Origin: Escherichia coli
GTDB taxonomy: Bacteria; Pseudomonadota; Gammaproteobacteria; Enterobacterales; Enterobacteriaceae
Assembly: GCF_016903815.1 (NCBI RefSeq)
Contig: NZ_CP069973.1
Direction: 5' to 3' (one strand)
Length of the DNA: 64,000 nt
A model generated the notes under the pieces. It did not search any database. It saw only the letters and a program-made list of their open reading frames with translations, and had not been told where the DNA came from. A program made the position numbers and the translations under genes. Positions 9,143 to 28,790 of this stretch are shown one piece after another. How positions within the stretch are numbered: position 1 is the first letter of the stretch; every line of letters starts with the position of its first letter.

Positions 9143-10495
<1,353 letters not shown>

Positions 10496-10543
10496 TCCCC
10501 ACCTCAATCTCGATAACCAAAAACAAACTATTTTTCATTTAAA

Positions 10544-10612
10544 AACAATGGAGTTTGTTTTTCACGCCCCTTTTTACAATATTTCTTGTTTACAACATAC
10601 AATCTTTCTTGT
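10544..10612. promoter_or_regulatory. Left operator OL (three ACAA-N6-TTGT sites) with the pL region
   Basis: Sites at 10544-10557, 10576-10589 and 10599-10612 upstream of nutL and N. Confidence 0.6.
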
Positions 10613-10656
10613 AATTTTAAGCCATCAGCAGGACGCACTAACCACCATGAAGGTGA

Positions 10657-10687
10657 TGCTCTTAAAAATTAAGCCCTGAAGAAGGGC
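10657..10687 (+). promoter_or_regulatory. nutL (boxA GCTCTTAAAAA, boxB GCCCTGAAGAAGGGC)
   Basis: Sequence GATGCTCTTAAAAATTAAGCCCTGAAGAAGGGCAGC matches recalled lambda nutL. Confidence 0.8.
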
Positions 10688-10885
10688 AGCTTTCAAAGCA
10701 GAAGGCTTTGGGATTGGATGAATGAGCAGGCTGATGCTCGACCAATGTATAAACAGCGCTCATGGCAAGCAGTAACCAATCTGCGCCTCAAGACAGCGTC
10801 ACTGGTAGTGCGGGCGCTCTAACCAGTAAGCCGGGGTTCAGCGCCGGCCATCCAATCACCAAAGCTAACTGACAGGAGAATCCAG

Positions 10886-11218
10886 ATGGATGCACAAACA
10901 CGCCGCCGCGAACGTCGCGCAGAGAAACAGGCTCAATGGAAAGCAGCGAATCCCCTGTTGGTTGGGGTAAGCGCAAAACCAGTTAACCGCCCTATTCTCT
11001 CGCTGAATCGCAAACCGAAATCACGAGTAGAAAGCGCACTGAATCCGATAGACCTTACGGTGCTGGCTGAATACCACGAACAGATTGAAAGCAACCTGCA
11101 GCGTATTGAGCGCAAGAATCAGCGCACATGGTACAGCAAGCCACGCAGTGAAATGGGTGTGACTTGCTCAGGCCGCCAGAAGCAACGCGGAAAATCAATT
11201 CCAGCTTATTACGATTGA
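10886..11218 (+). CDS. N: Antitermination protein N
   Basis: MDAQTRRRERRAEKQAQWKAANPLLVGVSAKPVNRPILSLNRKPKSRVESALNPIDLTVLAEYH... matches recalled lambda N. Confidence 0.9.
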   Translation: MDAQTRRRERRAEKQAQWKAANPLLVGVSAKPVNRPILSLNRKPKSRVESALNPIDLTVLAEYHEQIESNLQRIERKNQRTWYSKPRSEMGVTCSGRQKQRGKSIPAYYD

Positions 11219-11226
11219 GGTGATAT

Positions 11227-11478
11227 ATGGAATTTCATGAAAGTGCGATTTGTGATTTTCGCGCTAACGCAAATTCAGTAAAACCACAGCCAATTGCAGT
11301 TCTTTTTAAAACAATGGGAGCGTGGGCTGTTTTATGCTTCGCCGCTGATGACACTGACGCAAGAATGGCAATAGGCCAAGAGATGGAGATGGATCCGACA
11401 AACGATGAATTCATAATTTATGGCGCTCCATCTAATTACTTACTTGATACCTGCAACATTTACAACAAGGCTGCCTGA
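11227..11478 (+). CDS. Hypothetical early-left protein
   Basis: 83-aa ORF directly after N with an SD-ATG context. Confidence 0.4.
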   Translation: MEFHESAICDFRANANSVKPQPIAVLFKTMGAWAVLCFAADDTDARMAIGQEMEMDPTNDEFIIYGAPSNYLLDTCNIYNKAA

Positions 11479-11537
11479 TGGTGGTCTTTATTTTTTAGCC
11501 GTAAATAATTTCATGCTTATTACAATCAAGGTGATAT

Positions 11538-11903
11538 ATGGAAGAACAAGCAAACAAGATTCTCGTAGAACTACTGCAAAAAGCCAGCAATGGAATAGAC
11601 GCGGCTGTTTCATTTAGCCAGGCACAGATTCCTGATGTCATCCATCAGCTTTTGATGTGGCACGCCGTATCATCAGCTGGAATTCAGGCTATCTGTGTAT
11701 TGGTGATTATAGCGTGTGTTTATCTGATGATTTTTGCATGGAATAAAGGAGATGATGCAGATATTGTTCTTTCATCACTACTTGTCACATCAGGAATAGC
11801 GATTATTTCTATTGTTGTTTTCTTCAATTATTTCGACTGGCTGAAAATTTGGCTTGCTCCAAAACTTTACCTTATCGAATATGCAGCATCATTGGTTAAG
11901 TAA
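11538..11903 (+). CDS. Small membrane protein (two predicted TM segments) in the sieB/ral slot
   Basis: 121 aa with two hydrophobic stretches (AICVLVIIACVYLMIFAW and VTSGIAIISIVVFFNYF). Confidence 0.5.
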   Translation: MEEQANKILVELLQKASNGIDAAVSFSQAQIPDVIHQLLMWHAVSSAGIQAICVLVIIACVYLMIFAWNKGDDADIVLSSLLVTSGIAIISIVVFFNYFDWLKIWLAPKLYLIEYAASLVK

Positions 11904-18027: not shown

Positions 18028-18042
18028 CTGCAGGGGACACCA
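18028..18042 (+). repeat. attR-like direct repeat: 15 bp identical to the 3-prime end of tRNA-Arg (argW), CTGCAGGGGACACCA
   Basis: Exact 15-mer also present at 28336-28350; lies between torI and the next integrase. Confidence 0.7.
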
Positions 18043-18206: not shown

Positions 18207-19493
18207 ATGTCCAGAAATACCCTCAACAAATTAACAGACCGTCAGTGCAAAGCAGCTAAGCCACGAGACAAAACTTATAAATTGTCTGATGGTGGTGGTC
18301 TTTATCTTGAAGTATCCCAGACCGGGTCGAAGTATTGGCGAATGAAGTATCGCCGCCCATCAGATAAGAAAGAAGACAGACTTGCTTTTGGTGTATATCC
18401 AACCATTAGCTTACAAGACGCCAGAGAAAAACGAGACAACGCCAAAAAGTTGTTAGTCAAGGGGATAGATCCCAAAGCAGAGCAAAGAGCAGCAAAAGCA
18501 GAAGAAAAAGGCGCATTCACTTTTGAGACAATAGGACGTCAATGGGTTGAAAGCCACCAGATGTGGAACGAAGACCACCGAAAACGCGTACTTAGAAGCC
18601 TTGAAATGTATATTTTCCCTCACATTGGCACTTCGGATATTCGCAAACTGGAGGCGATGACAATTTTACCTTTGTTTAAGAAGGTAGATGACGCCGGGAA
18701 ACACGATACAGCCAACCGACTTAAACAACGAGTTAAGGACATCATACATAGCGCCCGTCTGAGCGGCATTAAGACAGAAATCATCACGAATGATCTCGAT
18801 GTCCGGTTAATGCAATATGAAACTAAGCATCATGCCGCACTACATCCCAGAGATTTACCAGACTTTTTCACTCGATTGGGCAGCTTTAAAGGTAATCCTC
18901 TTACCCGCCTTGCCATTGAGCTAACCATGTTGACATTTGTTCGTTCAAGCGAGTTAAGGTTTGCCCGTTGGAAAGAGTTTGACCTTGATCGGGCTGAGTG
19001 GATTATCCCTAAAAAAAGAGAGCCTATCGATGGTGTGAGGTTTTCCACCCGTGGCACAAAAACGGGAAAAGACGAACATATCGTGCTTCTTAGCCGTCAG
19101 GCTGTTTCTATTGTAAAGCAGTTGAGAGAACTAAGCGGAAGCTACGATGTTGTGTTTCCGAATGAAAGAAACACCAAAGGCGTGATGAGTGAAAACACGG
19201 TAAACAAGGCATTACGCTTAATGGGCTATAACACGCAAGAGGACGTAACTGGACATGGATTCCGTGCCACAGCCTGTAGTTCCCTGATGGAGTCCGGTTT
19301 GTGGCAGGAGGACGCAGTAGAGCGCCAGATGAGCCACAAAGAATATAAAGACGTTAAAAGAGCCTACAAGCACAAGGCTGATTACTTAGAAGAGCGCAAA
19401 CTAATGCTTCAATGGTGGGCAGATTATCTGGACGCCAATCGAGAAATACATATAAGCCCTTACGAGTTCGGAAGGAGAACACGCCGTGACTAA
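18207..19493 (+). CDS. Tyrosine integrase, P4 family
   Basis: 428 aa; P4-type N-terminus (KLTDRQCKAAKPRDKTYKLSDGGGLYLEV) and C-terminal LMLQWWADYLD motif. Confidence 0.9.
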   Translation: MSRNTLNKLTDRQCKAAKPRDKTYKLSDGGGLYLEVSQTGSKYWRMKYRRPSDKKEDRLAFGVYPTISLQDAREKRDNAKKLLVKGIDPKAEQRAAKAEEKGAFTFETIGRQWVESHQMWNEDHRKRVLRSLEMYIFPHIGTSDIRKLEAMTILPLFKKVDDAGKHDTANRLKQRVKDIIHSARLSGIKTEIITNDLDVRLMQYETKHHAALHPRDLPDFFTRLGSFKGNPLTRLAIELTMLTFVRSSELRFARWKEFDLDRAEWIIPKKREPIDGVRFSTRGTKTGKDEHIVLLSRQAVSIVKQLRELSGSYDVVFPNERNTKGVMSENTVNKALRLMGYNTQEDVTGHGFRATACSSLMESGLWQEDAVERQMSHKEYKDVKRAYKHKADYLEERKLMLQWWADYLDANREIHISPYEFGRRTRRD

Positions 19494-20241
19494 GATGACA
19501 GGACTAGATGCGTTTTATAACGAGTCAGAAGATAAAATCTGGTTTGGTAATCTGATCAGCGAACTGGCAAGACTAAACAATGAAAATGAAAGAATGATCG
19601 CTGCCGCTATCTTAAGTAACTACAGATTGAGCAAAGCTAAACCAGATACTTTAGGGGGGCTGGGCTTTTATCAGTTCGATTGGGTATCAGGTTTTACAAC
19701 TAATGACGACTTTGAAAAGCAGTGTGTGGAGTTTTTAGGTCTTCTGGCTATGGGGCATGAATACAGGGAGAGCCCGATACCGGGGGAAGAAGGGACTTTC
19801 AACGTTAGGAAAGGGGAAGACTTTTTATATCACGATGATGAGGATGATTGGTATGGGTCTTACGATTCGTTTTATTTCAAGCGCTCCGAGGTTGTGAACT
19901 TCTTCCCAGAACTGGATATGAATGTTCCAGATAACGAACCAGAAATTGGAGCACTGTCAAAAAAAGTAGAAAGAGAACAAAACTGGAGAGGAAAAGATAC
20001 GGCTTTAAAGATGATCGCCGGAATGGCGATTGCCTTATTTGAATCAAGCAAAGATTTCCATAGTGGAGGAAACCTTAGTATCAATAGGGTTAGTGCCCAA
20101 GTAATAGAAAACAACATAATATTCGGGAACGATGAAGACAGCGATACCCACCCAGATACATTTCGGAGATTGCTAACGAACGCTTTGGATAAGTACGCCC
20201 CCAAATTTAAGAAAAAAGCAACCAAAAAGCGTCCAAAATAA
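19486..20241 (+). CDS. Hypothetical acidic protein coupled to the integrase
   Basis: 251-aa ORF; start overlaps the int stop by 8 bp. Confidence 0.45.
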   Translation: MTKMTGLDAFYNESEDKIWFGNLISELARLNNENERMIAAAILSNYRLSKAKPDTLGGLGFYQFDWVSGFTTNDDFEKQCVEFLGLLAMGHEYRESPIPGEEGTFNVRKGEDFLYHDDEDDWYGSYDSFYFKRSEVVNFFPELDMNVPDNEPEIGALSKKVEREQNWRGKDTALKMIAGMAIALFESSKDFHSGGNLSINRVSAQVIENNIIFGNDEDSDTHPDTFRRLLTNALDKYAPKFKKKATKKRPK

Positions 20242-20397
20242 AGGAAGGATGTTCCCAAATTGTGCGTTAGAACTAAAAAATAACGCCCAATTTGGGGTAA
20301 TTCTATTCCCAAAAATTTTTTCTCCAAATTCACAGAAAACTTAAAAAAACAATGATTTACTATCTCACATAGTCAAGCAACGTATTACGAGGTAGAT

Positions 20398-20589
20398 ATG
20401 AAAAAGTCGCTGATTCGGCTATCTGAGGTTTTGAAACGCACTGGCTATAGCAAGGCGTGGGTATATGCTCTGATGAGCCGAGGACAATTCCCCCAATCAG
20501 TCAAGATTGGTGCTCGCGCAATAGCTTTTATTGAAAGCGAGATCGATGACTGGATCGATCAACGTATAGCCGAATCGCGTAGTAACTAA
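20398..20589 (+). CDS. alpA: AlpA-family transcriptional regulator / excisionase
   Basis: 63 aa; RLSEVLKRTGYSKAWVYALMSRGQFPQSVKIGARAIAFIESEIDDWI is the classic AlpA HTH. Confidence 0.8.
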   Translation: MKKSLIRLSEVLKRTGYSKAWVYALMSRGQFPQSVKIGARAIAFIESEIDDWIDQRIAESRSN

Positions 20590-20637
20590 AGAACAGAAAC
20601 AAACAGGATACAAACAATACGTTATTAGGTATTAAGA

Positions 20638-20829
20638 ATGCAGTTGAAACCTACCAATCAAAAGCTGAACGTAACCCATGTTGATTTTGAAACCTTCGCG
20701 GCACTGATTAGATCAGAGCCACAAAAGGTGAGCACCAGCACCTGGGTTTATGATGTGAAATCCACCAGCGGTGGAAAAGCTATCGGCATTGCCTCTGGCG
20801 ATGATTACTTAGTAATAGATCTGATTTAA
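20638..20829 (+). CDS. Hypothetical protein
   Basis: 63-aa ORF. Confidence 0.3.
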   Translation: MQLKPTNQKLNVTHVDFETFAALIRSEPQKVSTSTWVYDVKSTSGGKAIGIASGDDYLVIDLI

Positions 20830-20910
20830 TCGCACAAAAATTGTAGAGTAATTTGGGGAGACAGGAAGTCTCCTCCATATTACATTTTGGTACAACAGTA
20901 AGGGAATAAA

Positions 20911-21105
20911 ATGATTAATTACCTGACCGCTAAAGACGCAGCAGAATATCTTGGCGTCTGTCTGTCACGCTTCTATCAGTTAAAGCGATATATCCGAAGC
21001 TTTCCTCCCTATATAAATCAGACCATCAATGGACGCAAGCGCCGGGTGTGGCTTGCCTCCAGCCTTGATCAATTTGCCGACAGATTTCTGGGGGGACGAA
21101 AATGA
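20911..21105 (+). CDS. Hypothetical small protein, possible HTH
   Basis: 64-aa ORF with LTAKDAAEYLGVCLSRFYQL (HTH-like). Confidence 0.4.
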   Translation: MINYLTAKDAAEYLGVCLSRFYQLKRYIRSFPPYINQTINGRKRRVWLASSLDQFADRFLGGRK

Positions 21106-21488
21106 GCACTCTTACACGCTCTCAGGTCGCCGCGAATATACGCGATATCCTACTAAGTGGCAGGAAGCTTACCCCAAAAGAGTTTGACGACATATTAAGG
21201 AAAGCCGGAAATCACGAACGTAGTCGCGTTTTAACGCTGTTACGCAACGATTGGGGAATTCCTGTTGAGCAGTTTAAAACAGAGGCGTATCACGTCACAG
21301 AACGCAATTTAGAAGCATACCACAGCGATAAAGACGAAACATTGAAGATCTGGAGGACGAACGCCAGATATGTAAAGACATTGCGTAAGGTAAACATAAC
21401 GTTGTCGTTGTTGCGTGGGCTGGTGGGTAAAGTGCCTGAAGACACGCTTAGAACTGTTTACAAGGGTATTGAAACCAAATACCTGTGA
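21102..21488 (+). CDS. Hypothetical protein
   Basis: 128-aa ORF, 4-bp overlap with the upstream gene. Confidence 0.4.
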   Translation: MSTLTRSQVAANIRDILLSGRKLTPKEFDDILRKAGNHERSRVLTLLRNDWGIPVEQFKTEAYHVTERNLEAYHSDKDETLKIWRTNARYVKTLRKVNITLSLLRGLVGKVPEDTLRTVYKGIETKYL

Positions 21489-21556
21489 TTGACAAAGCAG
21501 AAAGCCGACTTTGCGAGAGTCGGCTTTGAAGCAATTGAAATATATGAACTTTACAC

Positions 21557-22609
21557 ATGGAATTATACGATAAAGACGCGAGTCTATCCACAAAATCACA
21601 AGCCGTAATCAATCACATCAATGGTCGCACATTAGCTTATGTGAGATCAGTTACGCACAAACGTAATGAATTAAAGGCGGAGAATAAACGCCAATCATCA
21701 AAGGCTAACCACTGCATACCACCAGCTTGGACAAAGAAGAAATGGCGTACAATGAGGCGAGCTTTGTTTACTCTGGATGTCGAATCAACTAGTGGTATCC
21801 CCTACTCCTTTACCTTCAGACCCGTTAAGGGAACAACGCCAGAGAAATTCAACAAAGCGTTAAAGGCACTTACCAGATGGTTGACTTCGAAAGGCAATCA
21901 GTGGGTTTACGTCATGGAGTGGGCTCAACACCAGTCAGAGCCGCATGTACACGCAATAATTATGGTGAACGAAAGAAGCATTAATGGGCAAGCAGGCAAA
22001 ATTGTCAGCAAATGGGTAACACTGGCAAACAATGCAATCCCATCAAATGTTCCTCCCCAGTGGGATCTAGATTTGAAAGGTCAGCAATATTCAGAGCCTA
22101 CAAGGTGTATAGGTAAACAGATTGATTACATGGCAAAACCCGAAACTAAGTTAAATGACTTTAATAGAGAGGCGAGCAAGAGCCTATATGATTGGTCAGA
22201 TGCCAACGTTTGGGGTTATTCGAATGGCTGGGCGCGGCATGAGATAAAAAAAGAAACACTTTCTATCACTGGCTTTCATGCTGTAAGACGCATACTAAAA
22301 GCCATTCAGGCATCAAGGAAAGACAACTACAAAGTTAAGCGACAGATACAGCGTACATTGAAACGACAAGACATAAATCGCTCACCAATCACCCCGTTCC
22401 AAGCACCGTTAATTAGCAAACACGATTGGGATTTATCAGTGATAGCGGTCACCAAAGAGGCAGAGACAGAGCGCAGGGAGTTACTATCCTCACAGACAAT
22501 AAACTCGAACAAAGTACAAACCCACCCGCTGTTAAGGATGTTAAGAAAAGCACGAGTGAGAGCATCCAGAGCCAGAAGAGAAAGCGGAGGTTATGACCAT
22601 TACTACTAG
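21557..22609 (+). CDS. Putative rolling-circle replication initiator (HUH endonuclease)
   Basis: 350 aa with an HUH-like motif (EPHVHAIIMV) and tyrosine-rich region; family assignment is from motif only. Confidence 0.45.
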   Translation: MELYDKDASLSTKSQAVINHINGRTLAYVRSVTHKRNELKAENKRQSSKANHCIPPAWTKKKWRTMRRALFTLDVESTSGIPYSFTFRPVKGTTPEKFNKALKALTRWLTSKGNQWVYVMEWAQHQSEPHVHAIIMVNERSINGQAGKIVSKWVTLANNAIPSNVPPQWDLDLKGQQYSEPTRCIGKQIDYMAKPETKLNDFNREASKSLYDWSDANVWGYSNGWARHEIKKETLSITGFHAVRRILKAIQASRKDNYKVKRQIQRTLKRQDINRSPITPFQAPLISKHDWDLSVIAVTKEAETERRELLSSQTINSNKVQTHPLLRMLRKARVRASRARRESGGYDHYY

Positions 22610-23407
22610 TAGTGACAGATCGTGACAAGGCAGAGCAAAAAACGACCAATATAAGAGAAATATCCCTGCCCAATCGCCAAAAGCGCGGAGCGCGGAGCGC
22701 GGCAAGCGCCGCGAGAGGCGCAAGAAGGCGAACCTATCCATTGAAACGGTCAGAAGAGCGCATCGCGCTCGATGACCGAAGTCCCCACTAACACCGTTAA
22801 CGAAAGATCAAAGTCTTAGAAAAAAATGACGTTTCTTTGAAGGGCTTCCATCCGTAAAAATCAAATTTTGAGATAAAGTACTTATAGAAATTAATCACTC
22901 TATAAGAGTGAGTTGACGTGAGTTTGAAGTGAGCAACATATTAAAAATATATATAATAATCAAACATATAATAACAACTACTGAGCAAAAATCACCAGAA
23001 AACAACGTCAACGTAACGTCACTCTGTAAGCACTTTTTCAGTCACTTTTTGGGTTGAATACACGTATAAATCCCCAACCATGAAATTTGAGCGCGTAAGC
23101 ACGACTCTGAAAGGCTTTTTATCTTTTAACCATTTAATATACCTGAGGTATTGAAGAAGATTCTGAGACATATACTAGAACTTTACCGTGCACGACTAAC
23201 AACATAAACGTTATATTTATATATAAATCAATGAGATAAATACATCCCCATCCAAAAAACAAGCATAACGCAAAATTGCGTTATCAACTTAAAAGGTACG
23301 ATTGAATCTGACAGTCTGCTCTGAGCGAAATGTGGGCACGTTCACCATAAGTCTCCAGATTGAAACGAAATGATAGTGTTAAATGTTCGATAGTTACTTT
23401 TCTAAGC

Positions 23408-24400
23408 TCAACGTTCGTAATAGTAATCCGACACCTCAGTAAAATCTATTTCCTCCCTAGAAAGTAATGATTCCATCTCATCTAGTTTATCGATTTGAGG
23501 CAAAACACTTGTTGGTGAAATCACAACATTAAAGTCCTCATTATATCGGTGACCTACCCTTGTGAGCTCTTTACCTAATTGCAACAATATATAATCACGT
23601 AAAATAAGTTGATTCCGTCTAAATCGAATAAGACGATAGTAATGGAAGAAATCAGAACATTTTGATGAATCATAATTTCTACCATTCCACCCGGTTTTCC
23701 TCGTAGCTCGGAATAATGCTTGCTCTTGCGTATTTTTCCAAATGCTAAAATCAAAGTGACTTTTCGGGTTAGGATTTTCGTATGTTGCTTGAGGATAAAA
23801 ATTAGTAACACCAAATTGATGCTTGTCAATGATCTTTAAAGTCCGATTTTGTTCAGACAACATCCGCCTTAAGGACCTAGGAATTTCGAAACGCATTAGT
23901 TTGTTTTTATCCAAGATTCTTAATTCTCTTGGAAGCATCTCATGATCCCGTTCTAAATATCTTTCACACCGTTTCGGCACATACTGAAAATACACTGAAA
24001 AAAAACAAAATATATTATCAGAAACGAGAGGAGTAATATGTATTTTTTCTTGCTCAGGAACGTTTTGAACAAAATAGTATGCCGTTCCTTGCCAAATCAA
24101 CGATTGCGCTACTGCCTCCACCAATTCACGTATTGTTTCATCTACCGAGTATTTCCTATATCTAGCTTGTAAATTTCCAAACATTTTACGTATGAGTTCT
24201 TCGTCGTTAGTTTCGACTTGAAACAAATTGGTATCACCGTGATTTACAAAATTAAAAACTCTAGCAAAATCCTCATAAAACATCCTTTGATAGAAACCTG
24301 GTCGTTCATTCTTAGACTTGGTCAATAGTCTATCAACAAAACTTAATTGCTCAGGATCGACGCTATAACCGTAAAGGGGTATATTCTTGATAATTTTCAT
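23408..24400 (-). CDS. Unclassified 330-aa soluble protein, downstream gene of the cargo operon
   Basis: Long ORF with AAGGA Shine-Dalgarno; start ATG overlaps the upstream stop as ATGA; no TM segment and no catalytic motif recognised. Confidence 0.6.
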   Translation of the reverse strand: MKIIKNIPLYGYSVDPEQLSFVDRLLTKSKNERPGFYQRMFYEDFARVFNFVNHGDTNLFQVETNDEELIRKMFGNLQARYRKYSVDETIRELVEAVAQSLIWQGTAYYFVQNVPEQEKIHITPLVSDNIFCFFSVYFQYVPKRCERYLERDHEMLPRELRILDKNKLMRFEIPRSLRRMLSEQNRTLKIIDKHQFGVTNFYPQATYENPNPKSHFDFSIWKNTQEQALFRATRKTGWNGRNYDSSKCSDFFHYYRLIRFRRNQLILRDYILLQLGKELTRVGHRYNEDFNVVISPTSVLPQIDKLDEMESLLSREEIDFTEVSDYYYER

Positions 24401-26874
24401 TCAAAATCCTTATCGTATTCCACGCCAAAACGACGAGCCAACTCACTAACATGGTAATCGATCTTGAAGTCAATTTGCTCGAGTTGCGGGAAAATTTCGA
24501 GAGCACAAAAGAGATGCGATGCATCTGAATGGGAGTTTAAGAACTCTCTGACAACTTTGTTCGTATGAGATTTCCCTCGATTCATTCCCATTTGATCGCT
24601 AAAGCCATCATGTCTTGCGCGGCGCTCAAATTCCATTTTCCAGTTAAGACGAATCATATCTCTCGGTGATGCGCACAAGCTGAAATTGCGCGGATTTGAA
24701 AGAATCATCATTCTCTTCAAATACTGCTGTTTGTTGGGAACAGACTCGAGCCAAGACTTAAACCTATCAAGTACTGTTTTAGATAGTTTTGCATTATCGA
24801 AATAAGCACTGTAAAGGATAGCAAAACCTAGAACTGACATCAGATCGTTGATCGCGGATGAAAGGAGATGCAGTCGAAACTCGTTGTTTATATCGAGTTT
24901 CGGATCTACAAATTTGGTATCTGATGCCAGCAATGAGAGAACCATGAACATAGGGAATACCTTGCTCAGTTTATTTTCATCATTCTGTTCAAGCGCATGT
25001 ATACATTCCTCAGCCAACTCAAAATATATCTGTCCAAAATGATCCGGTAGTTCATCATCTTGCTCTTGTTCAATGATATGTCCCACAATTTCCACCCTAC
25101 CAAGAATAGCTATAGCTTCATCCTGTGTAACGACAAACTGTTTGAGCATTTCAGCAATATTAATTTCTGGTAATGCGTATAGCTTTTCAGAGTAGTGCTC
25201 GTACTTTCTGTATCTCTCCAAGAGCAGAGAAAGTTCATTAAACCAATGGGGAAACTTCAAATGATTATGTAGGCTAGCGAGAACGACTTGCGTTGCGGCT
25301 TCCGGCATCTTCATGTTTATCAGTGAGTTAACGAAATCTGGAACCATGTTTACGTGAAAATCGCATACTTCTGGCAGAATTTTAGAATATTGTTGTAATA
25401 ACTTCTGAACCGCCAACTGCTGGACGTACTTTGGTTTGGATAATCTCTGTCCTTCAATCTCTTTTTCGAATTCGATACGTTCTACGATAAAGGCCAACTC
25501 AACCTGCAGAAAAGCAGGCAAAGTGTGTAGAGAGGTCTCTGTCCAGATATCATCTTTAAAGAACTGCTCCAATTCTTTCTCAAAAGTAATCATGCGGCGT
25601 AACATTTCAAGGCAAAGATTGCTGCCTAATGCAGCCCATGCATCCGCAATTCCAACTTTTATCACCTTTTCCTCAAAATAATTAACGACATCAGACGGTG
25701 TAAAGGCTTTTTCAATGATCGTCTTCATTTTCCGAAGTTCACGTATACCAATATCGAACTGAAACTGTTGTGCATAAGTTAATATACGAGATGAGAATAG
25801 ACTGATGAGATCCAACCCGAGCTTGAAATCACCGGCTTTGAATGCAAGTTCAATATGGCCTACCAACCTATTGATAATTTCATTCTCTAACCAAAGATAA
25901 TTTGGTTCTTCTTCAACCGTTAATTGGCTCCTTGTTTTTAAAGCAATGGATGTTACACTGTCGCCAGCTAAGAACCATTGCTTATGTTTTATTCGTCTAG
26001 GGAACCAGTAACTTTGATAATCAATTCTGTGTTTCTGATTAAGGTAATGAAGAAGTAATGCCGAATAAACATTACTGAGAGCAGGTAAATTATCTCCGAG
26101 TCCTACTTTTTCACATATCAGGCGATCATCAATGTAGTTTAACTGCTCAAAGGCCAAATGTGCGGCTTTAGAGTGATGATTAGCTAAAGATACTGAATTC
26201 TTGGGATTAGACGCACCTTCGATGTGTCGTGCAATTCGTGGGAGTATTTCACTTCGGGCTAACTGATTTAGGTCAAAAAAATTGAATAATCTTTGACCTA
26301 ATGGGAACAGAGCTAAGGAACTAACAAGTGTCAGCAATGTTCCCATTGCATAAACGAAAAGACCGGGTTCAACCCCGAACAAGTGGAGAGCAGTTGCACT
26401 AAGACAAAACACCGCAGAAAGCACTAAAGTCCGCGAATACACATTACCTACCTGCTCGGTAGTAAGCATTTGTATAATATCTCGCCGAAGTCTGGTATAT
26501 CCTGTACTTAGAATGATACCTATTGTAGCAAAGTATATTGAAAATATAGCGGTAAGTATCTGTGCGTACAACCTAAGTTGATCAATATTAAATTTTTTTT
26601 CATCATAGCTAAGAGGATGAAGCAAAATCGTATTATTCCGAATATAATCTTCAACAAAACCCAGTGCAAATAACGTTAATATGACCCATAACAAATTTTT
26701 TAAACCTACCAACGCAAAAGACATAAAAACATGAGCGTTAGACTTAGCTTTAAAAACAGACGTACGATGTATGTATGACGCACGTTCTAAAATAAATCTA
26801 ACCCTCACAAGATCTGTTCTTAATTTCCAGAACCACTTTTGAGAAATAAGCCAAACCTTCATTATATCAATCAA
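24397..26874 (-). CDS. Unclassified 825-aa membrane-anchored protein (about four N-terminal TM helices plus a roughly 630-aa helical cytoplasmic region)
   Basis: Uninterrupted 2.5-kb ORF in AT-rich DNA; hydrophobic segments near residues 50-74, 102-124, 148-168 and 172-192; no Walker or nuclease motif seen. The track start is TTG; the first ATG is at 26862. Confidence 0.6.
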   Translation of the reverse strand: MIDIMKVWLISQKWFWKLRTDLVRVRFILERASYIHRTSVFKAKSNAHVFMSFALVGLKNLLWVILTLFALGFVEDYIRNNTILLHPLSYDEKKFNIDQLRLYAQILTAIFSIYFATIGIILSTGYTRLRRDIIQMLTTEQVGNVYSRTLVLSAVFCLSATALHLFGVEPGLFVYAMGTLLTLVSSLALFPLGQRLFNFFDLNQLARSEILPRIARHIEGASNPKNSVSLANHHSKAAHLAFEQLNYIDDRLICEKVGLGDNLPALSNVYSALLLHYLNQKHRIDYQSYWFPRRIKHKQWFLAGDSVTSIALKTRSQLTVEEEPNYLWLENEIINRLVGHIELAFKAGDFKLGLDLISLFSSRILTYAQQFQFDIGIRELRKMKTIIEKAFTPSDVVNYFEEKVIKVGIADAWAALGSNLCLEMLRRMITFEKELEQFFKDDIWTETSLHTLPAFLQVELAFIVERIEFEKEIEGQRLSKPKYVQQLAVQKLLQQYSKILPEVCDFHVNMVPDFVNSLINMKMPEAATQVVLASLHNHLKFPHWFNELSLLLERYRKYEHYSEKLYALPEINIAEMLKQFVVTQDEAIAILGRVEIVGHIIEQEQDDELPDHFGQIYFELAEECIHALEQNDENKLSKVFPMFMVLSLLASDTKFVDPKLDINNEFRLHLLSSAINDLMSVLGFAILYSAYFDNAKLSKTVLDRFKSWLESVPNKQQYLKRMMILSNPRNFSLCASPRDMIRLNWKMEFERRARHDGFSDQMGMNRGKSHTNKVVREFLNSHSDASHLFCALEIFPQLEQIDFKIDYHVSELARRFGVEYDKDFE

Positions 26875-27055: not shown

Positions 27056-27084
27056 AAGAAACGCGCCCAGCAAAGGCGCGTTCT
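27056..27084 (-). terminator. Hairpin terminator after the small minus-strand ORF
   Basis: ACGCGCC-TTTGCTG-GGCGCGT stem-loop followed by a T-rich tract on the minus strand. Confidence 0.4.
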
Positions 27085-27264
27085 GCATCAGGTAAGTTTG
27101 CTGGGGTCTACGGTTTCCATCCAATCTGGAGCAATTCCCAAACGTTCCGCTATCTCTTCGTTGGTCATGTCTTCAGTTGAGAAATTAGCCAGAGAATCGT
27201 TAACTTCAGGATAGTCAGGGGAGAGTAACAGGTATTCCCGCAACGCTTTCAGATCTTTTTCCAT
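27085..27264 (-). CDS. Small ORF (59 aa) upstream of the cargo operon, not on the ORF track
   Basis: My own translation MEKDLKALREYLLLSPDYPEVNDSLANFSTEDMTNEEIAERLGIAPDWMETVDPSKLT; followed on the minus strand by a hairpin. Confidence 0.3.
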
Positions 27265-27431
27265 TTTAACGCTCCTTGTTTATTGACAGTCGAACGATGG
27301 TGAAGATTCTTGCCATCTCAAGTACAGGCAAGAAAATCCACCAGAACACCAAATTATCTCATAAGGTTAAATCGGTGTCGGGCTATTTCTTTCGGCTAGG
27401 TGAGTGTACCGCCTTAACCACCGGCAATTAT

Positions 27432-27564
27432 CATTGTCTCAATTGGGTATACCGTAATGACAAGGTGATACAAAGTCTCAATAGGGTTGTATAGGAACAT
27501 TTTGACTACACAAAATGCATTATGTATCATTTGCACTTATATTCACAACCCTATTGAGACAATG
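27432..27564. promoter_or_regulatory. res-like repeat cluster directly upstream of the serine recombinase gene
   Basis: 16-bp inverted repeat GTCTCAATAGGGTTGT (27475-27490) / ACAACCCTATTGAGAC (27545-27560) plus a partial direct copy CATTGTCTCAAT at 27432-27443. Confidence 0.45.
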
Positions 27565-27566
27565 CA

Positions 27567-28193
27567 ATGAACGTTAGAATTTACTGCCGAGCATCAACTG
27601 AGGGGCAACACGCTGATCGAGCACTTACCAGCCTACGTGAATTTTCAAAATCAAAAGGCTGGCAGATTGCAGGAGAGTATATAGAAAATGCTAGCGGGGC
27701 GAAGCTTGAGCGCGTAGAGCTTATGCGGCTATTGTCTGAAGCCCAGTCCGGCGATCTGTTGCTAGTGGAAGCTATAGATCGTCTGAGTCGCCTAGAACAT
27801 AGCGCATGGGTCGAACTGAAAGATACGCTCAACCGAAAAGGGTTAATCATCGTATCAATGGATTTACCAACGAGCTGGCAGATGGTCGAGATGGCAGGCA
27901 ATGACCTAACCAGCGGCATCCTGAGAGCCGTAAATGCCATGTTGATTGATATCCTTGCCACAATGGCACGGCAGGATTACGAAACACGTCGTAAACGCCA
28001 ACAGCAAGGCATTGAGCGAGCTAAAAGCGAAGGAATATACATTGGCAGGGAGAAAAATCAGGAAGCCCGAGAGATCGTTAGAGAGATGTTGGAGCAAGGA
28101 GTAAAACCTGAACTCATCATGAAGGCAGCAGGAATCAGCCGAGCGACTTACTACCGTATAAAAAGTGAGCTGTCAGTCGTAAAATCAGAATAA
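27567..28193 (+). CDS. Serine recombinase (resolvase/invertase family)
   Basis: 208 aa; N-terminal VRIYCRASTEGQ catalytic-serine motif and C-terminal HTH. Confidence 0.85.
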   Translation: MNVRIYCRASTEGQHADRALTSLREFSKSKGWQIAGEYIENASGAKLERVELMRLLSEAQSGDLLLVEAIDRLSRLEHSAWVELKDTLNRKGLIIVSMDLPTSWQMVEMAGNDLTSGILRAVNAMLIDILATMARQDYETRRKRQQQGIERAKSEGIYIGREKNQEAREIVREMLEQGVKPELIMKAAGISRATYYRIKSELSVVKSE

Positions 28194-28327
28194 CCTTTGA
28201 AAGGTCGTCAGGCTTGTTTCATCTGCTAAAAGCCAGCATTTCTGACCATAATACCTGGGGGCACCTACTGGGGCACCCACCAAAATCGAAAGACAAATAA
28301 GTTATAATTCAATCTGTTAGTTTACTT

Positions 28328-28350
28328 TTCGATTCCTGCAGGGGACACCA
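28328..28350 (+). repeat. attR direct repeat: 23 bp identical to the argW 3-prime end, TTCGATTCCTGCAGGGGACACCA
   Basis: Matches the recalled 3-prime end of E. coli tRNA-Arg (argW); shares a 15-mer with 18028-18042. Confidence 0.8.
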
Positions 28351-28790
28351 GATACCCTTCAAACCAAATCTACCTTCACCCCGTAAAAGATGGGTTTGGC
28401 GCACACTAGCCCTATATCTACTCATTTTTACTGCAACAGGTTGAAATCTCAGCACTGTCAGAAAGCGCTGATGACTAAACAGCCCTGGGCCGGGCGATGT
28501 AACCATCATACAGAATCCTGATAGCGAAATATGGCGTGACTCGATACTTCACTCTGCAATGCATTCCTTGATGAATTCGCAGGCCCGTGATACTCGGGAC
28601 AGGTCGCTGAATGACGACAATGTCCTGGAAATCAGCGAACCGCGTATCCGGAGTACATTTGAGCGACTGTACCAGAACATGAATGAGGCGTTTGGATTAG
28701 GTGATTATTAGTTGGGCTAAGCATTTTTGTATTATTATTTTCCGGTTGAGGGATATGGAGATATCGACAACAACCGGAAAAAGTTTACGT

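What the first reader, a model, noticed from the sequence alone, without database searches (positions are those of the whole stretch)
27432..28193. Serine recombinase with a res-like repeat cluster immediately upstream, flanking the cargo operon
A resolvase/invertase-type serine recombinase (catalytic RASTEGQ motif) sits at the island end. Directly upstream is a 16-bp inverted repeat (27475-27490 and 27545-27560, spacer about 54 bp) plus a partial third copy at 27432-27443, resembling a res or invertase binding site. A serine recombinase is unusual beside a tyrosine-integrase island and could reflect independent capture of the cargo module or an inversion switch.
Basis: seen in the sequence. 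Interest (0 to 1): 0.55.

Follow-up and report, generated by a model that had tools for sequence, protein, structure and literature searches.

The report
Island resolvase with its res site
The repeats are the binding sites of a small serine resolvase and form a three-part "res" site wrapped around the enzyme's own promoter, at the end of a 10-kb mobile island in E. coli; this is an ordinary multimer-resolution module, not an inversion switch, though its crossover point also marks where different cargo genes have been joined to the module.

Summary
There is an intact 208-aa serine recombinase (27567-28193). Three copies of GTCTCAATWGGGT lie just upstream, including a perfect 16-bp inverted repeat.

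The inversion-switch idea is not supported. None of 547 E. coli genomes carries the 54-bp spacer flipped, and the window has no second crossover site.

Comparison across Enterobacterales resolves the repeats into a 125-bp res-like site (27436-27560):
- Site I is a 28-bp dyad centred on GGTA|TACC.
- Site II holds the -35 hexamer.
- Site III holds the -10 hexamer and the ribosome-binding site.

The gene is under purifying selection (pN/pS about 0.1). Its nearest solved relatives are the Sin and gamma-delta resolvases. Relatives at 35-48% identity sit on plasmids such as pWW0.

The module ends a 10.3-kb argW island that carries a tyrosine integrase, an AlpA-like regulator, a Rep protein and variable defence-like cargo. 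SGI1 is an experimentally tested precedent for this arrangement.

Sequence relatedness switches abruptly at site I in several independent island pairs. I infer that resolution of mixed dimers has reassorted the cargo.

Verdict: a new member of a known kind, of modest interest.

The parts
27436..27463 (.). res site I (predicted crossover site): GTCTCAATTGGGTA|TACCGTAATGACAA, an imperfect 28-bp dyad centred on GGTA|TACC (27449/27450).
   Evidence: GGTATACC and the left half-site are invariant in 10 Enterobacterales relatives with 58-100% protein identity. The right half reads GTCTTTATCAGGTA-like on the other strand in relatives. Homology to other cargo variants and other genera starts here.
   Evidence: In relatives at about 80% identity the right half is AACCCTATTGACA, which gives a clear 32-34 bp dyad. 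The centre lies 42 bp (4 helical turns) from the site I centre.
   Evidence: The left half is GTATCATATGGGT (9/13) in relatives. TGAGAC in the right half is nearly invariant. A half-site at about -21 to -25 from the start codon recurs in distant relatives.
27502..27530 (+). Predicted sigma-70 promoter of the recombinase gene: TTGACT, 17 nt, TATCAT.
   Evidence: 10 of 12 consensus matches. Both hexamers are conserved in the footprint alignment.
27567..28193 (+). Small serine recombinase (resolvase type), 208 aa, with catalytic Y6 R8 S10 Q14 D71 R72 R75 invariant in 16 homologues.
   Evidence: pN/pS is 0.10-0.15.
27088..27264 (-). 58-aa ORF (phrog_35119) transcribed divergently from res. It is semi-conserved between islands and its function is unknown.
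23408..26874 (-). Variable cargo: ORFs of 330 aa and 825 aa with no family assignment.
   Evidence: Sister islands carry GapS6, SIR2, HNH, GTPase or ParA-like genes in the same slot.
18028..18042 (.). attL core, a 15-bp direct repeat from the argW 3' end.
28336..28350 (.). attR core, within a partial argW copy at 28328-28350.
18207..22609 (+). Island backbone: P4-type tyrosine integrase (18207-19493), a 251-aa ORF, an AlpA-like excisionase/regulator (20398-20589), small DNA-binding proteins, and a rolling-circle Rep-like protein (21752-22609).

Best explanation
This is a resolvase/res multimer-resolution module belonging to a 10.3-kb argW-integrated island that is probably able to excise and replicate. 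The 208-aa serine recombinase is proposed to bind as dimers to three subsites spanning 125 bp directly upstream of its own gene. When two res sites lie in direct repeat on one molecule (a dimer or concatemer of the excised island, or a tandem array), the accessory sites II and III would assemble the synapse. The enzyme would then cut and rejoin at the centre of site I (GGTA|TACC), returning monomers. The -35 hexamer lies in site II, and the -10 hexamer and ribosome-binding site lie in site III, so occupancy should also repress the recombinase's own promoter. A likely by-product is cargo reassortment: resolving heterodimers formed by homologous recombination between related islands joins one island's cargo to another's res-right+gene block at site I. 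What is shown: the sequence anatomy, its conservation, the co-variation of motif with recombinase lineage, the absence of inversion, purifying selection, and the mosaic junctions. What is inferred: binding, the crossover position, autorepression, island replication, and the origin of the mosaics.
For: Protein:
- It has the Resolvase domain and a weak HTH_7 match.
- The best solved relatives are Sin/Bin3 (1.5e-15) and the gamma-delta and Tn3 resolvases, aligned over residues 6-201; no DNA invertase is among the 21 hits.
- The catalytic residues are invariant.
- pN/pS is 0.10-0.15.

Site:
- There are three strong half-sites plus degenerate partners, and these partners become clear dyads in relatives at about 80% identity.
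- The promoter hexamers are embedded in the site.

Family-wide pattern:
- Repeated 10-mers occur in the 150 nt upstream of the gene in 40 of 80 loci, against 2 of 80 and 1 of 78 control windows (p about 1e-18).
- The motif sequence changes with lineage, but the positions (about -120, -80, -50, -21) persist.
- The motif travels with the gene into different backbones, including a plasmid: DNA homology spans only 27432/45-28162/72.

Plasmid relatives:
- pWW0 backbone recombinase, 47.8% identity.
- A gene annotated 'parA, plasmid stabilization protein, resolvase', 35% identity.

Precedent: the SGI1 res/resolvase removes island multimers (PMC12217951).

Mosaicism:
- WIN vs L103 has 41 mismatches in -420..-118 and none in the next 877 bp.
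- L099 vs L102 has 233 mismatches, then 2.
- L002, L004 and L099 are identical on the left and differ on the right.
- The junction intervals intersect at -122..-78, which contains the site I centre.
- The K. aerogenes islands L085 and L089 show the same pattern.
Against: - No binding or recombination data exist for this protein.
- The right half of site II (7/13) and the left half of site III (7/13) are weak in this window, so the three-dyad model leans on relatives.
- Site III (37 bp) and the I-II spacing (42 bp) differ from the Tn3 and SGI1 values.
- Excision and replication of the island are inferred only from gene content.
- The mosaic junctions could come from homologous recombination inside the perfectly conserved 125-bp res, or from selection to keep res intact. 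Several cargo swaps end further left, at 27056-27338 rather than at site I.
Confidence: 0.72

Rival explanations
1. Invertible promoter switch: the recombinase flips the 54-bp segment between the 16-bp inverted repeats, redirecting the promoter from its own gene towards the leftward 58-aa ORF and cargo.
For: A perfect 16-bp inverted repeat brackets a 10/12 promoter, and there is a weaker promoter-like site on the opposite strand. Divergent genes lie on either side.
Against: A query with the spacer inverted matches all 547 genomes only at 87-89% identity, meaning none carries the flipped form. Each arm is a 13-16 bp half-site, not a full dimer-binding crossover site. An 86-bp unit is too short for synapsis by a serine invertase (established knowledge of Hin/Gin systems). 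Relatives do not keep the inverted arrangement. The Mpi invertase model scores 37.9 bits against a cut-off of 272.
Confidence: 0.03
2. Operator only: the recombinase (or another island regulator) uses the repeats purely to control transcription of itself and perhaps the leftward cargo, and no recombination is now catalysed.
For: The promoter hexamers and ribosome-binding site lie inside the repeats. res lies between divergent transcription units.
Against: All catalytic residues are conserved under purifying selection. Site I lies 53 bp or more upstream of the -35 hexamer yet is the most conserved element, with a palindromic centre that a repressor function does not obviously require. Abrupt mosaic junctions occur at site I. 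The motif follows the recombinase gene, not the island backbone.
Confidence: 0.12
3. Dedicated cargo-docking system: site I acts as an attachment point where the recombinase integrates or exchanges circular cargo cassettes. Cargo turnover would then be its selected function rather than a by-product.
For: At least five or six left/right allele combinations occur among 11 loci, with junction intervals that include site I. The same holds in K. aerogenes islands. The res+gene module starts exactly at site I in six contexts.
Against: No second site I-like sequence bounds the cargo on its left side. The left cargo boundary is at about 22919-23126 with no repeat. Many swaps end left of res. Accessory sites II and III are the hallmark of a topological filter that favours deletion over fusion (established for Tn3-type and Sin resolvases).
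Confidence: 0.08
4. Inactive remnant of a plasmid or transposon resolution system, stranded at the island end.
For: The window has no partner site. One genome has a truncated copy (H195) and one has a 3' relic.
Against: The ORF is intact in about 547 genomes, pN/pS is about 0.1, and res is almost invariant while its flanks diverge by 14-30%.
Confidence: 0.05

Closest known systems
SGI1 (Salmonella genomic island 1) Res/res resolution system
   Same: It is an integrative island with a tyrosine integrase, its own replication module and a small serine resolvase. The res site has three subsites directly upstream of the res gene and contains that gene's -35 and -10 hexamers. It removes island multimers (PMC12217951). 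Variable cargo sits immediately upstream of res.
   Different: SGI1 res is 107 bp (28 + 22-bp spacer + 30 + 2 + 25). Here it is 125 bp (28 + 11 + 34 + 15 + 37). SGI1 Res groups with the Tn3/Tn5044 resolvases, whereas this protein scores better with Sin/Bin3 than with gamma-delta or Tn3. The direct sequence relationship to SGI1 Res was not tested. SGI1 cargo arrived by res-hunter transposition, and no transposon ends are seen here.
Tn3/gamma-delta resolvase and res
   Same: Three dimer-binding subsites lie upstream of the gene, with the crossover site I distal, a 28-bp site I, a 34-bp site II, and divergent transcription units on either side. Hybrid elements with junctions at res are known from the literature (own knowledge).
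   Different: Sequence similarity is only distant (E about 1e-10). There is no transposase and no terminal inverted repeats. The I-II spacing is 4 helical turns rather than 5.
Plasmid multimer-resolution resolvases (pWW0/IncP-9 backbone recombinase; RP4 ParA type; Sin/Bin3)
   Same: These are the closest sequence relatives with a known or presumed role: pWW0 at 47.8%, a gene annotated 'parA, plasmid stabilization protein, resolvase' at 35%, and Sin as the best PDB hit. The resolution site doubles as the regulatory region of the gene (PMC6312765).
   Different: This module is chromosomal, in an integrated island. Sin uses two subsites plus a DNA-bending protein, whereas three subsites are predicted here. 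That the pWW0 gene acts as a multimer resolvase is my recollection and was not checked here.
DNA invertases (Hin, Gin, Pin, Mpi)
   Same: They share the protein superfamily and the size class.
   Different: There is no pair of inverted crossover sites, no inverted form in 547 genomes, and the score is far below the Mpi family cut-off.

Membership tests
Small serine recombinase (resolvase/invertase superfamily, PF00239) | N-terminal catalytic domain with the nucleophilic serine and the conserved Arg/Asp residues | tested here: met
   PF00239 at E=7.8e-23 over residues 5-156. Y6 R8 S10 Q14 D71 R72 R75 are invariant in 16 homologues.
Small serine recombinase (resolvase/invertase superfamily, PF00239) | C-terminal helix-turn-helix DNA-binding domain, about 180-210 aa in total | tested here: met
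   208 aa. HTH_7 at E=0.0049 over residues 169-201. The alignments to Sin and gamma-delta run through residue 201.
Tn3-type res site | About 110-125 bp directly upstream of the resolvase gene, with three subsites of inverted half-sites and the crossover site distal | tested here: inconclusive
   Site I is a clear conserved dyad. Sites II and III each have one strong and one weak half in this window (7/13 each), but they are clear dyads in relatives at about 80% identity.
Tn3-type res site | Resolvase binds each subsite, cleaves at the central 2 bp of site I, and resolves only directly repeated sites | not testable with these tools
   This needs EMSA or footprinting and a resolution assay.
Tn3-type res site | The promoter of the resolvase gene lies within res (autoregulation) | tested here: met
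   TTGACT-17-TATCAT lies at 27502-27530 inside sites II and III. This shows position only; repression was not tested.
Tn3-family transposon | DDE transposase and about 38-bp terminal inverted repeats flanking the unit | tested here: not met
   The island has no transposase. It is bounded by 15-bp direct repeats of the argW end.
DNA invertase (Hin/Gin/Pin/Mpi) | Two inverted crossover sites flank a segment that is found in both orientations | tested here: not met
   0 of 547 genomes have the inverted form. The window has only one site I.
DNA invertase (Hin/Gin/Pin/Mpi) | Sequence membership in the family | tested here: not met
   NF009949 Mpi scores 37.9 bits against a cut-off of 272. No invertase chain appears among the PDB hits.
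IS607-family serine transposase / large serine integrase | Family HMM score above cut-off; for large serine integrases, the C-terminal recombinase and zinc-ribbon domains | tested here: not met
   IS607 scores 35.2 against a cut-off of 110, XisF 27.5 against 375, and CcrB 22.2 against 900. The protein is only 208 aa.
Island or plasmid multimer-resolution system | Carried on an element that exists as a replicating circle able to form multimers | tested here: inconclusive
   The island has an integrase, an AlpA-like excisionase and a Rep-like gene. Relatives sit on plasmids. No circular or multimeric form was observed, and there is no match in viral contigs.

The most novel reading that the evidence does not exclude
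The res/resolvase module is a selected cargo-exchange device for a family of small argW islands and their relatives in other Enterobacterales. On this reading, crossover at site I routinely recombines anti-phage cargo modules between co-resident islands, making a serine-resolvase analogue of an integron-like docking point for defence genes.
Probability: 0.12. Interest if true: 0.6.

Novelty: new member of a known kind. Interest (0 to 1): 0.3.

Why it matters
The repeat now has a concrete, testable anatomy: a crossover site, two accessory sites and an embedded promoter. That removes the more exciting inversion-switch reading.

The wider value lies in the context:
- About 10% of complete E. coli genomes carry this small argW island.
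- Its backbone is constant, while one slot holds GapS6, SIR2, HNH, GTPase, ParA-like or unknown genes.
- The sharp relatedness switch at res site I suggests that dimer resolution helps shuffle these defence cargos between islands, as res-site hybrids do among Tn3-family transposons.
- The unannotated 825-aa and 330-aa pair in this window becomes a candidate anti-phage system by position.

Tried and rejected
- Inversion test: two synthetic queries with the 54-bp spacer flipped, one with the local flank and one with the conserved block only, found no genome with that form.
- Second site: searches for the 16-mer and for the site I core found nothing. The exception is a 13/16 match at 20078-20093 that carries an exact 11-nt core, which is chance level by shuffles.
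- Structured RNA: Rfam gave only chance-level eukaryotic hits. The left arm lies upstream of the predicted promoter, so the two arms would not share a transcript.
- Phage-satellite packaging: an exact 44-nt res pattern has no match in IMG/VR viral contigs.
- PADLOC, NCBIfam and PHROGs gave no function for the cargo, and no equivalog for the recombinase.
- Literature searches on argW islands with resolvases or defence hotspots found no description of this island family. A search for the role of the pWW0 backbone resolvase returned only papers about its transposons.
- The look-up of encoding contigs for the exact protein returned a single uninformative place.
- I considered a Sin-type two-subsite res. 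The footprint alignment fits three subsites better, but the two are not rigorously distinguished.

Full report

Yes. The ORF at 27567-28193 (+) encodes 208 aa beginning MNVRIYCRASTEGQ.
- It matches Pfam Resolvase (PF00239, E=7.8e-23, residues 5-156), and more weakly the resolvase HTH_7 domain (E=0.0049, residues 169-201).
- The arms 27475-27490 and 27545-27560 form a perfect 16-bp inverted repeat with 54 nt between them.
- A third copy at 27432-27448 is a direct repeat of the left arm (92% over 13 nt, 39-bp spacing). It is also 17 nt / 94% complementary to 27548-27564.
- The 16-mer with up to 3 mismatches occurs 3 times in the window against 0.29 expected, and no shuffle out of 100 reached 3.

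**2. Where the finding sits**

The window is E. coli chromosome at the argW-dsdA hot spot. It holds a lambdoid/KplE1-type prophage ending with torI, then a small island, then cscBKAR, dsdA, emrYK and evgAS. The csc insertion at this variable argW region is described in PMC3032704.

The island is bounded by a 15-bp direct repeat of the argW 3' end, at 18028-18042 and 28336-28350. It carries, in order:
- a P4-type tyrosine integrase;
- an AlpA-like excisionase/regulator;
- small DNA-binding proteins;
- a rolling-circle Rep-like protein;
- two unannotated cargo ORFs on the minus strand (330 and 825 aa);
- a 58-aa ORF;
- the repeat cluster and the recombinase, which stops 143 bp before attR.

About 547-549 of 5426 complete E. 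coli genomes carry the recombinase block, always on the chromosome.

**3. What the repeats are**

I aligned the 150 nt upstream of the gene from ten Enterobacterales relatives with 58-100% protein identity, and mapped half-sites in each locus. The cluster resolves into three subsites.

- *Site I (27436-27463).* The sequence is GTCTCAATTGGGTA|TACCGTAATGACAA. The left half and the central palindrome GGTATACC are invariant. In relatives the right half reads GTCTTTATCAGGTA-like on the other strand, so this is a 28-bp imperfect dyad.
The right half is degenerate here (7/13) but reads AACCCTATTGACA in relatives at about 80% identity. It contains the -35 hexamer.
- *Site III (27524-27560).* The left half is degenerate (7/13 here, 9/13 in relatives) and contains the -10 hexamer.

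The predicted promoter is TTGACT-17-TATCAT at 27502-27530, with 10 of 12 consensus matches. Both hexamers are conserved in the alignment.

The centres of sites I and II are 42 bp apart, which is four helical turns. The review text in PMC12217951 gives 4-7 turns as the known range.

**4. Evidence that the recombinase itself binds these repeats**

- Across 80 loci encoding relatives at 44-98% identity, a repeated 10-mer family occurs in the 150 nt upstream of the gene in 40 of 80 loci. Control windows give 2 of 80 (inside the gene) and 1 of 78 (further upstream), Mann-Whitney p about 1e-18.
- The motif differs by lineage: TCAATAGGGT in Enterobacterales, TGGTTCGATT in Rhizobiales, TAGTGATA-type in Pseudomonas. 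Copies nevertheless recur near -120, -80, -50 and -21.
- In Citrobacter, Buttiauxella, K. aerogenes islands (which use a large serine integrase) and an Enterobacter IncFIB plasmid, DNA homology to the window starts at 27432-27445 and ends at 28162-28172. The sites travel with the gene, not with the island backbone.

**5. What kind of recombinase it is**

- The best solved relatives are Sin/Bin3 (2r0q, E=1.5e-15) and the gamma-delta and Tn3 resolvases, aligned over residues 6-201. No invertase chain is among the 21 hits.
- It reaches no NCBIfam equivalog: Mpi invertase scores 37.9 against a cut-off of 272, and IS607 scores 35.2 against 110.
- Y6, R8, S10, Q14, D71, R72 and R75 are invariant in 16 homologues.
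- Pairwise pN/pS among five alleles is 0.10-0.15.
- Plasmid relatives include the pWW0 backbone recombinase (47.8% identity) and a gene annotated 'parA, plasmid stabilization protein, resolvase' (35%).
- Few phage records have a relative, and none is close.

**6. Inversion switch: rejected**

- A query with the 54-bp spacer reverse-complemented, tried both with the local flank and with only the conserved block, matches all 547 genomes at 87-89% identity over its full length. An inverted allele would have ranked first at about 100%.
- The window has no second site I.
- Relatives do not keep the inverted-repeat layout.
- Rfam gives nothing credible for a structured-RNA reading.

**7. Mechanism proposed**

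This is a resolution module of the kind found on plasmids, Tn3-family transposons and SGI1. The resolvase would bind all three subsites. Two res sites in direct repeat on one molecule would synapse, and the strands would be exchanged at the centre of site I. Occupancy of sites II and III would repress the embedded promoter.

SGI1 is the direct precedent. It is an integrative island with a tyrosine integrase, its own replicon and a small serine resolvase. Its three-box res lies upstream of the gene and contains the gene's promoter boxes. Restoring that res eliminates island multimers (PMC12217951). PMC6312765 states the general rule that the plasmid resolution site doubles as the regulatory region of the resolvase gene.

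Binding, the cleavage position, autorepression and the existence of circular replicating island forms are all inferences here.

**8. Cargo and mosaicism**

Sister islands share the backbone at 95-99% identity but differ in the slot between about 22919/23126 and 27056-27437. That slot holds GapS6a/b, a SIR2-family protein, an HNH endonuclease, a GTPase pair, a ParA-like protein, a 470-aa ORF in O157:H7, or the 825+330-aa pair seen here.

The left flank and the res-right+gene block have discordant histories:
- WIN vs L103 differ at 41 positions in -420..-118 (the last at -134) and at none in the next 877 bp.
- WIN vs L100 differ at 99 positions, then 2.
- WIN vs L002 and L099 vs L102 have unrelated left sides, including two differences inside the left half-site (the last at -123), then 2 differences in 877 bp.
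- Conversely, L002, L004 and L099 are identical for the 303 bp compared on the left but differ at 34-47 positions on the right.
- L003 and L101 are identical from -235 to -53, then differ.

The junction intervals intersect at -122..-78, which contains the site I centre at -118/-117. WIN vs O157:H7 shows 14-26% divergence left of 27450, 0-2% up to about 28150 (6% in one 50-bp bin), and 10-18% beyond. The K. aerogenes islands L085 and L089 are identical from GGGTATACC onward, differ at 2 positions in the left half-site, and are unrelated further left.

The simplest reading is that heterodimers formed by homologous recombination in the backbone were resolved at res. This is inferred. Homologous recombination within the invariant 125 bp, or selection to keep res intact, cannot be excluded. 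Several cargo swaps also end left of res.

**9. Verdict**

The 'res-like' reading is supported and sharpened. The 'inversion switch' reading and the claim that the pairing is unusual are not supported. This is a new member of a known kind. Interest is modest, and comes mainly from the apparent role of res as a junction in the reassortment of defence-like cargo.

Noticed in passing
window 23408-26874 (- strand): The two cargo ORFs (330 aa and 825 aa) have no PHROG, NCBIfam, PADLOC or recorded Pfam hit. They occupy the slot that holds GapS6a/b, SIR2, HNH, GTPase or ParA-like genes in sister islands with the same backbone. By position they are a candidate uncharacterised anti-phage system.
   Followed up: partly
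window 20078-20093: A 13/16 match to the repeat, with an exact 11-nt core TCAATAGGGTT, lies inside the island ORF 19486-20241. Shuffles expect 0.29 such matches per window, so it is probably chance. It is in direct orientation relative to sites I and II.
   Followed up: partly
L098 (NZ_CM142781.1) 10241-11869: In this SIR2-cargo island the recombinase gene is followed by an extra 263-aa ORF and then a 3' relic of a second recombinase copy (equivalent to window 27907-28350), just before attR. The module's right end has also been rearranged.
   Followed up: partly
window 27088-27264 (- strand): A 58-aa ORF (phrog_35119, function unknown) is transcribed divergently from res. Its N-terminal coding sequence is recognisably conserved even in GapS6 islands whose remaining flank is unrelated.
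   Followed up: no
window 27432-28172 versus L005-L008, L085, L089, L097: The res+recombinase unit is a discrete block of about 730 bp. It is shared at about 70% DNA identity with Citrobacter, Buttiauxella and K. aerogenes islands and with Enterobacter IncFIB plasmids. Homology starts at site I and ends about 25 bp before the stop codon.
   Followed up: yes
window 28529-28711: Just outside attR there is a short ORF annotated in RefSeq as a DUF4942 domain protein (61 aa). It looks like a fragment of an older CP4-type island between the argW copy and cscB.
   Followed up: no
NZ_CP021879.1 (hit H1/H136): One genome has an IS903B insertion within the 1.6-kb region around the recombinase. The exact insertion point relative to res was not examined.
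   Followed up: no
window 22610-23125: About 500 bp downstream of the Rep gene stays conserved among the islands before the cargo diverges. The left cargo boundary is at about 22919 in GapS6 islands and about 23118-23126 in the others. The region has no annotated gene and could hold an origin or terminator.
   Followed up: no
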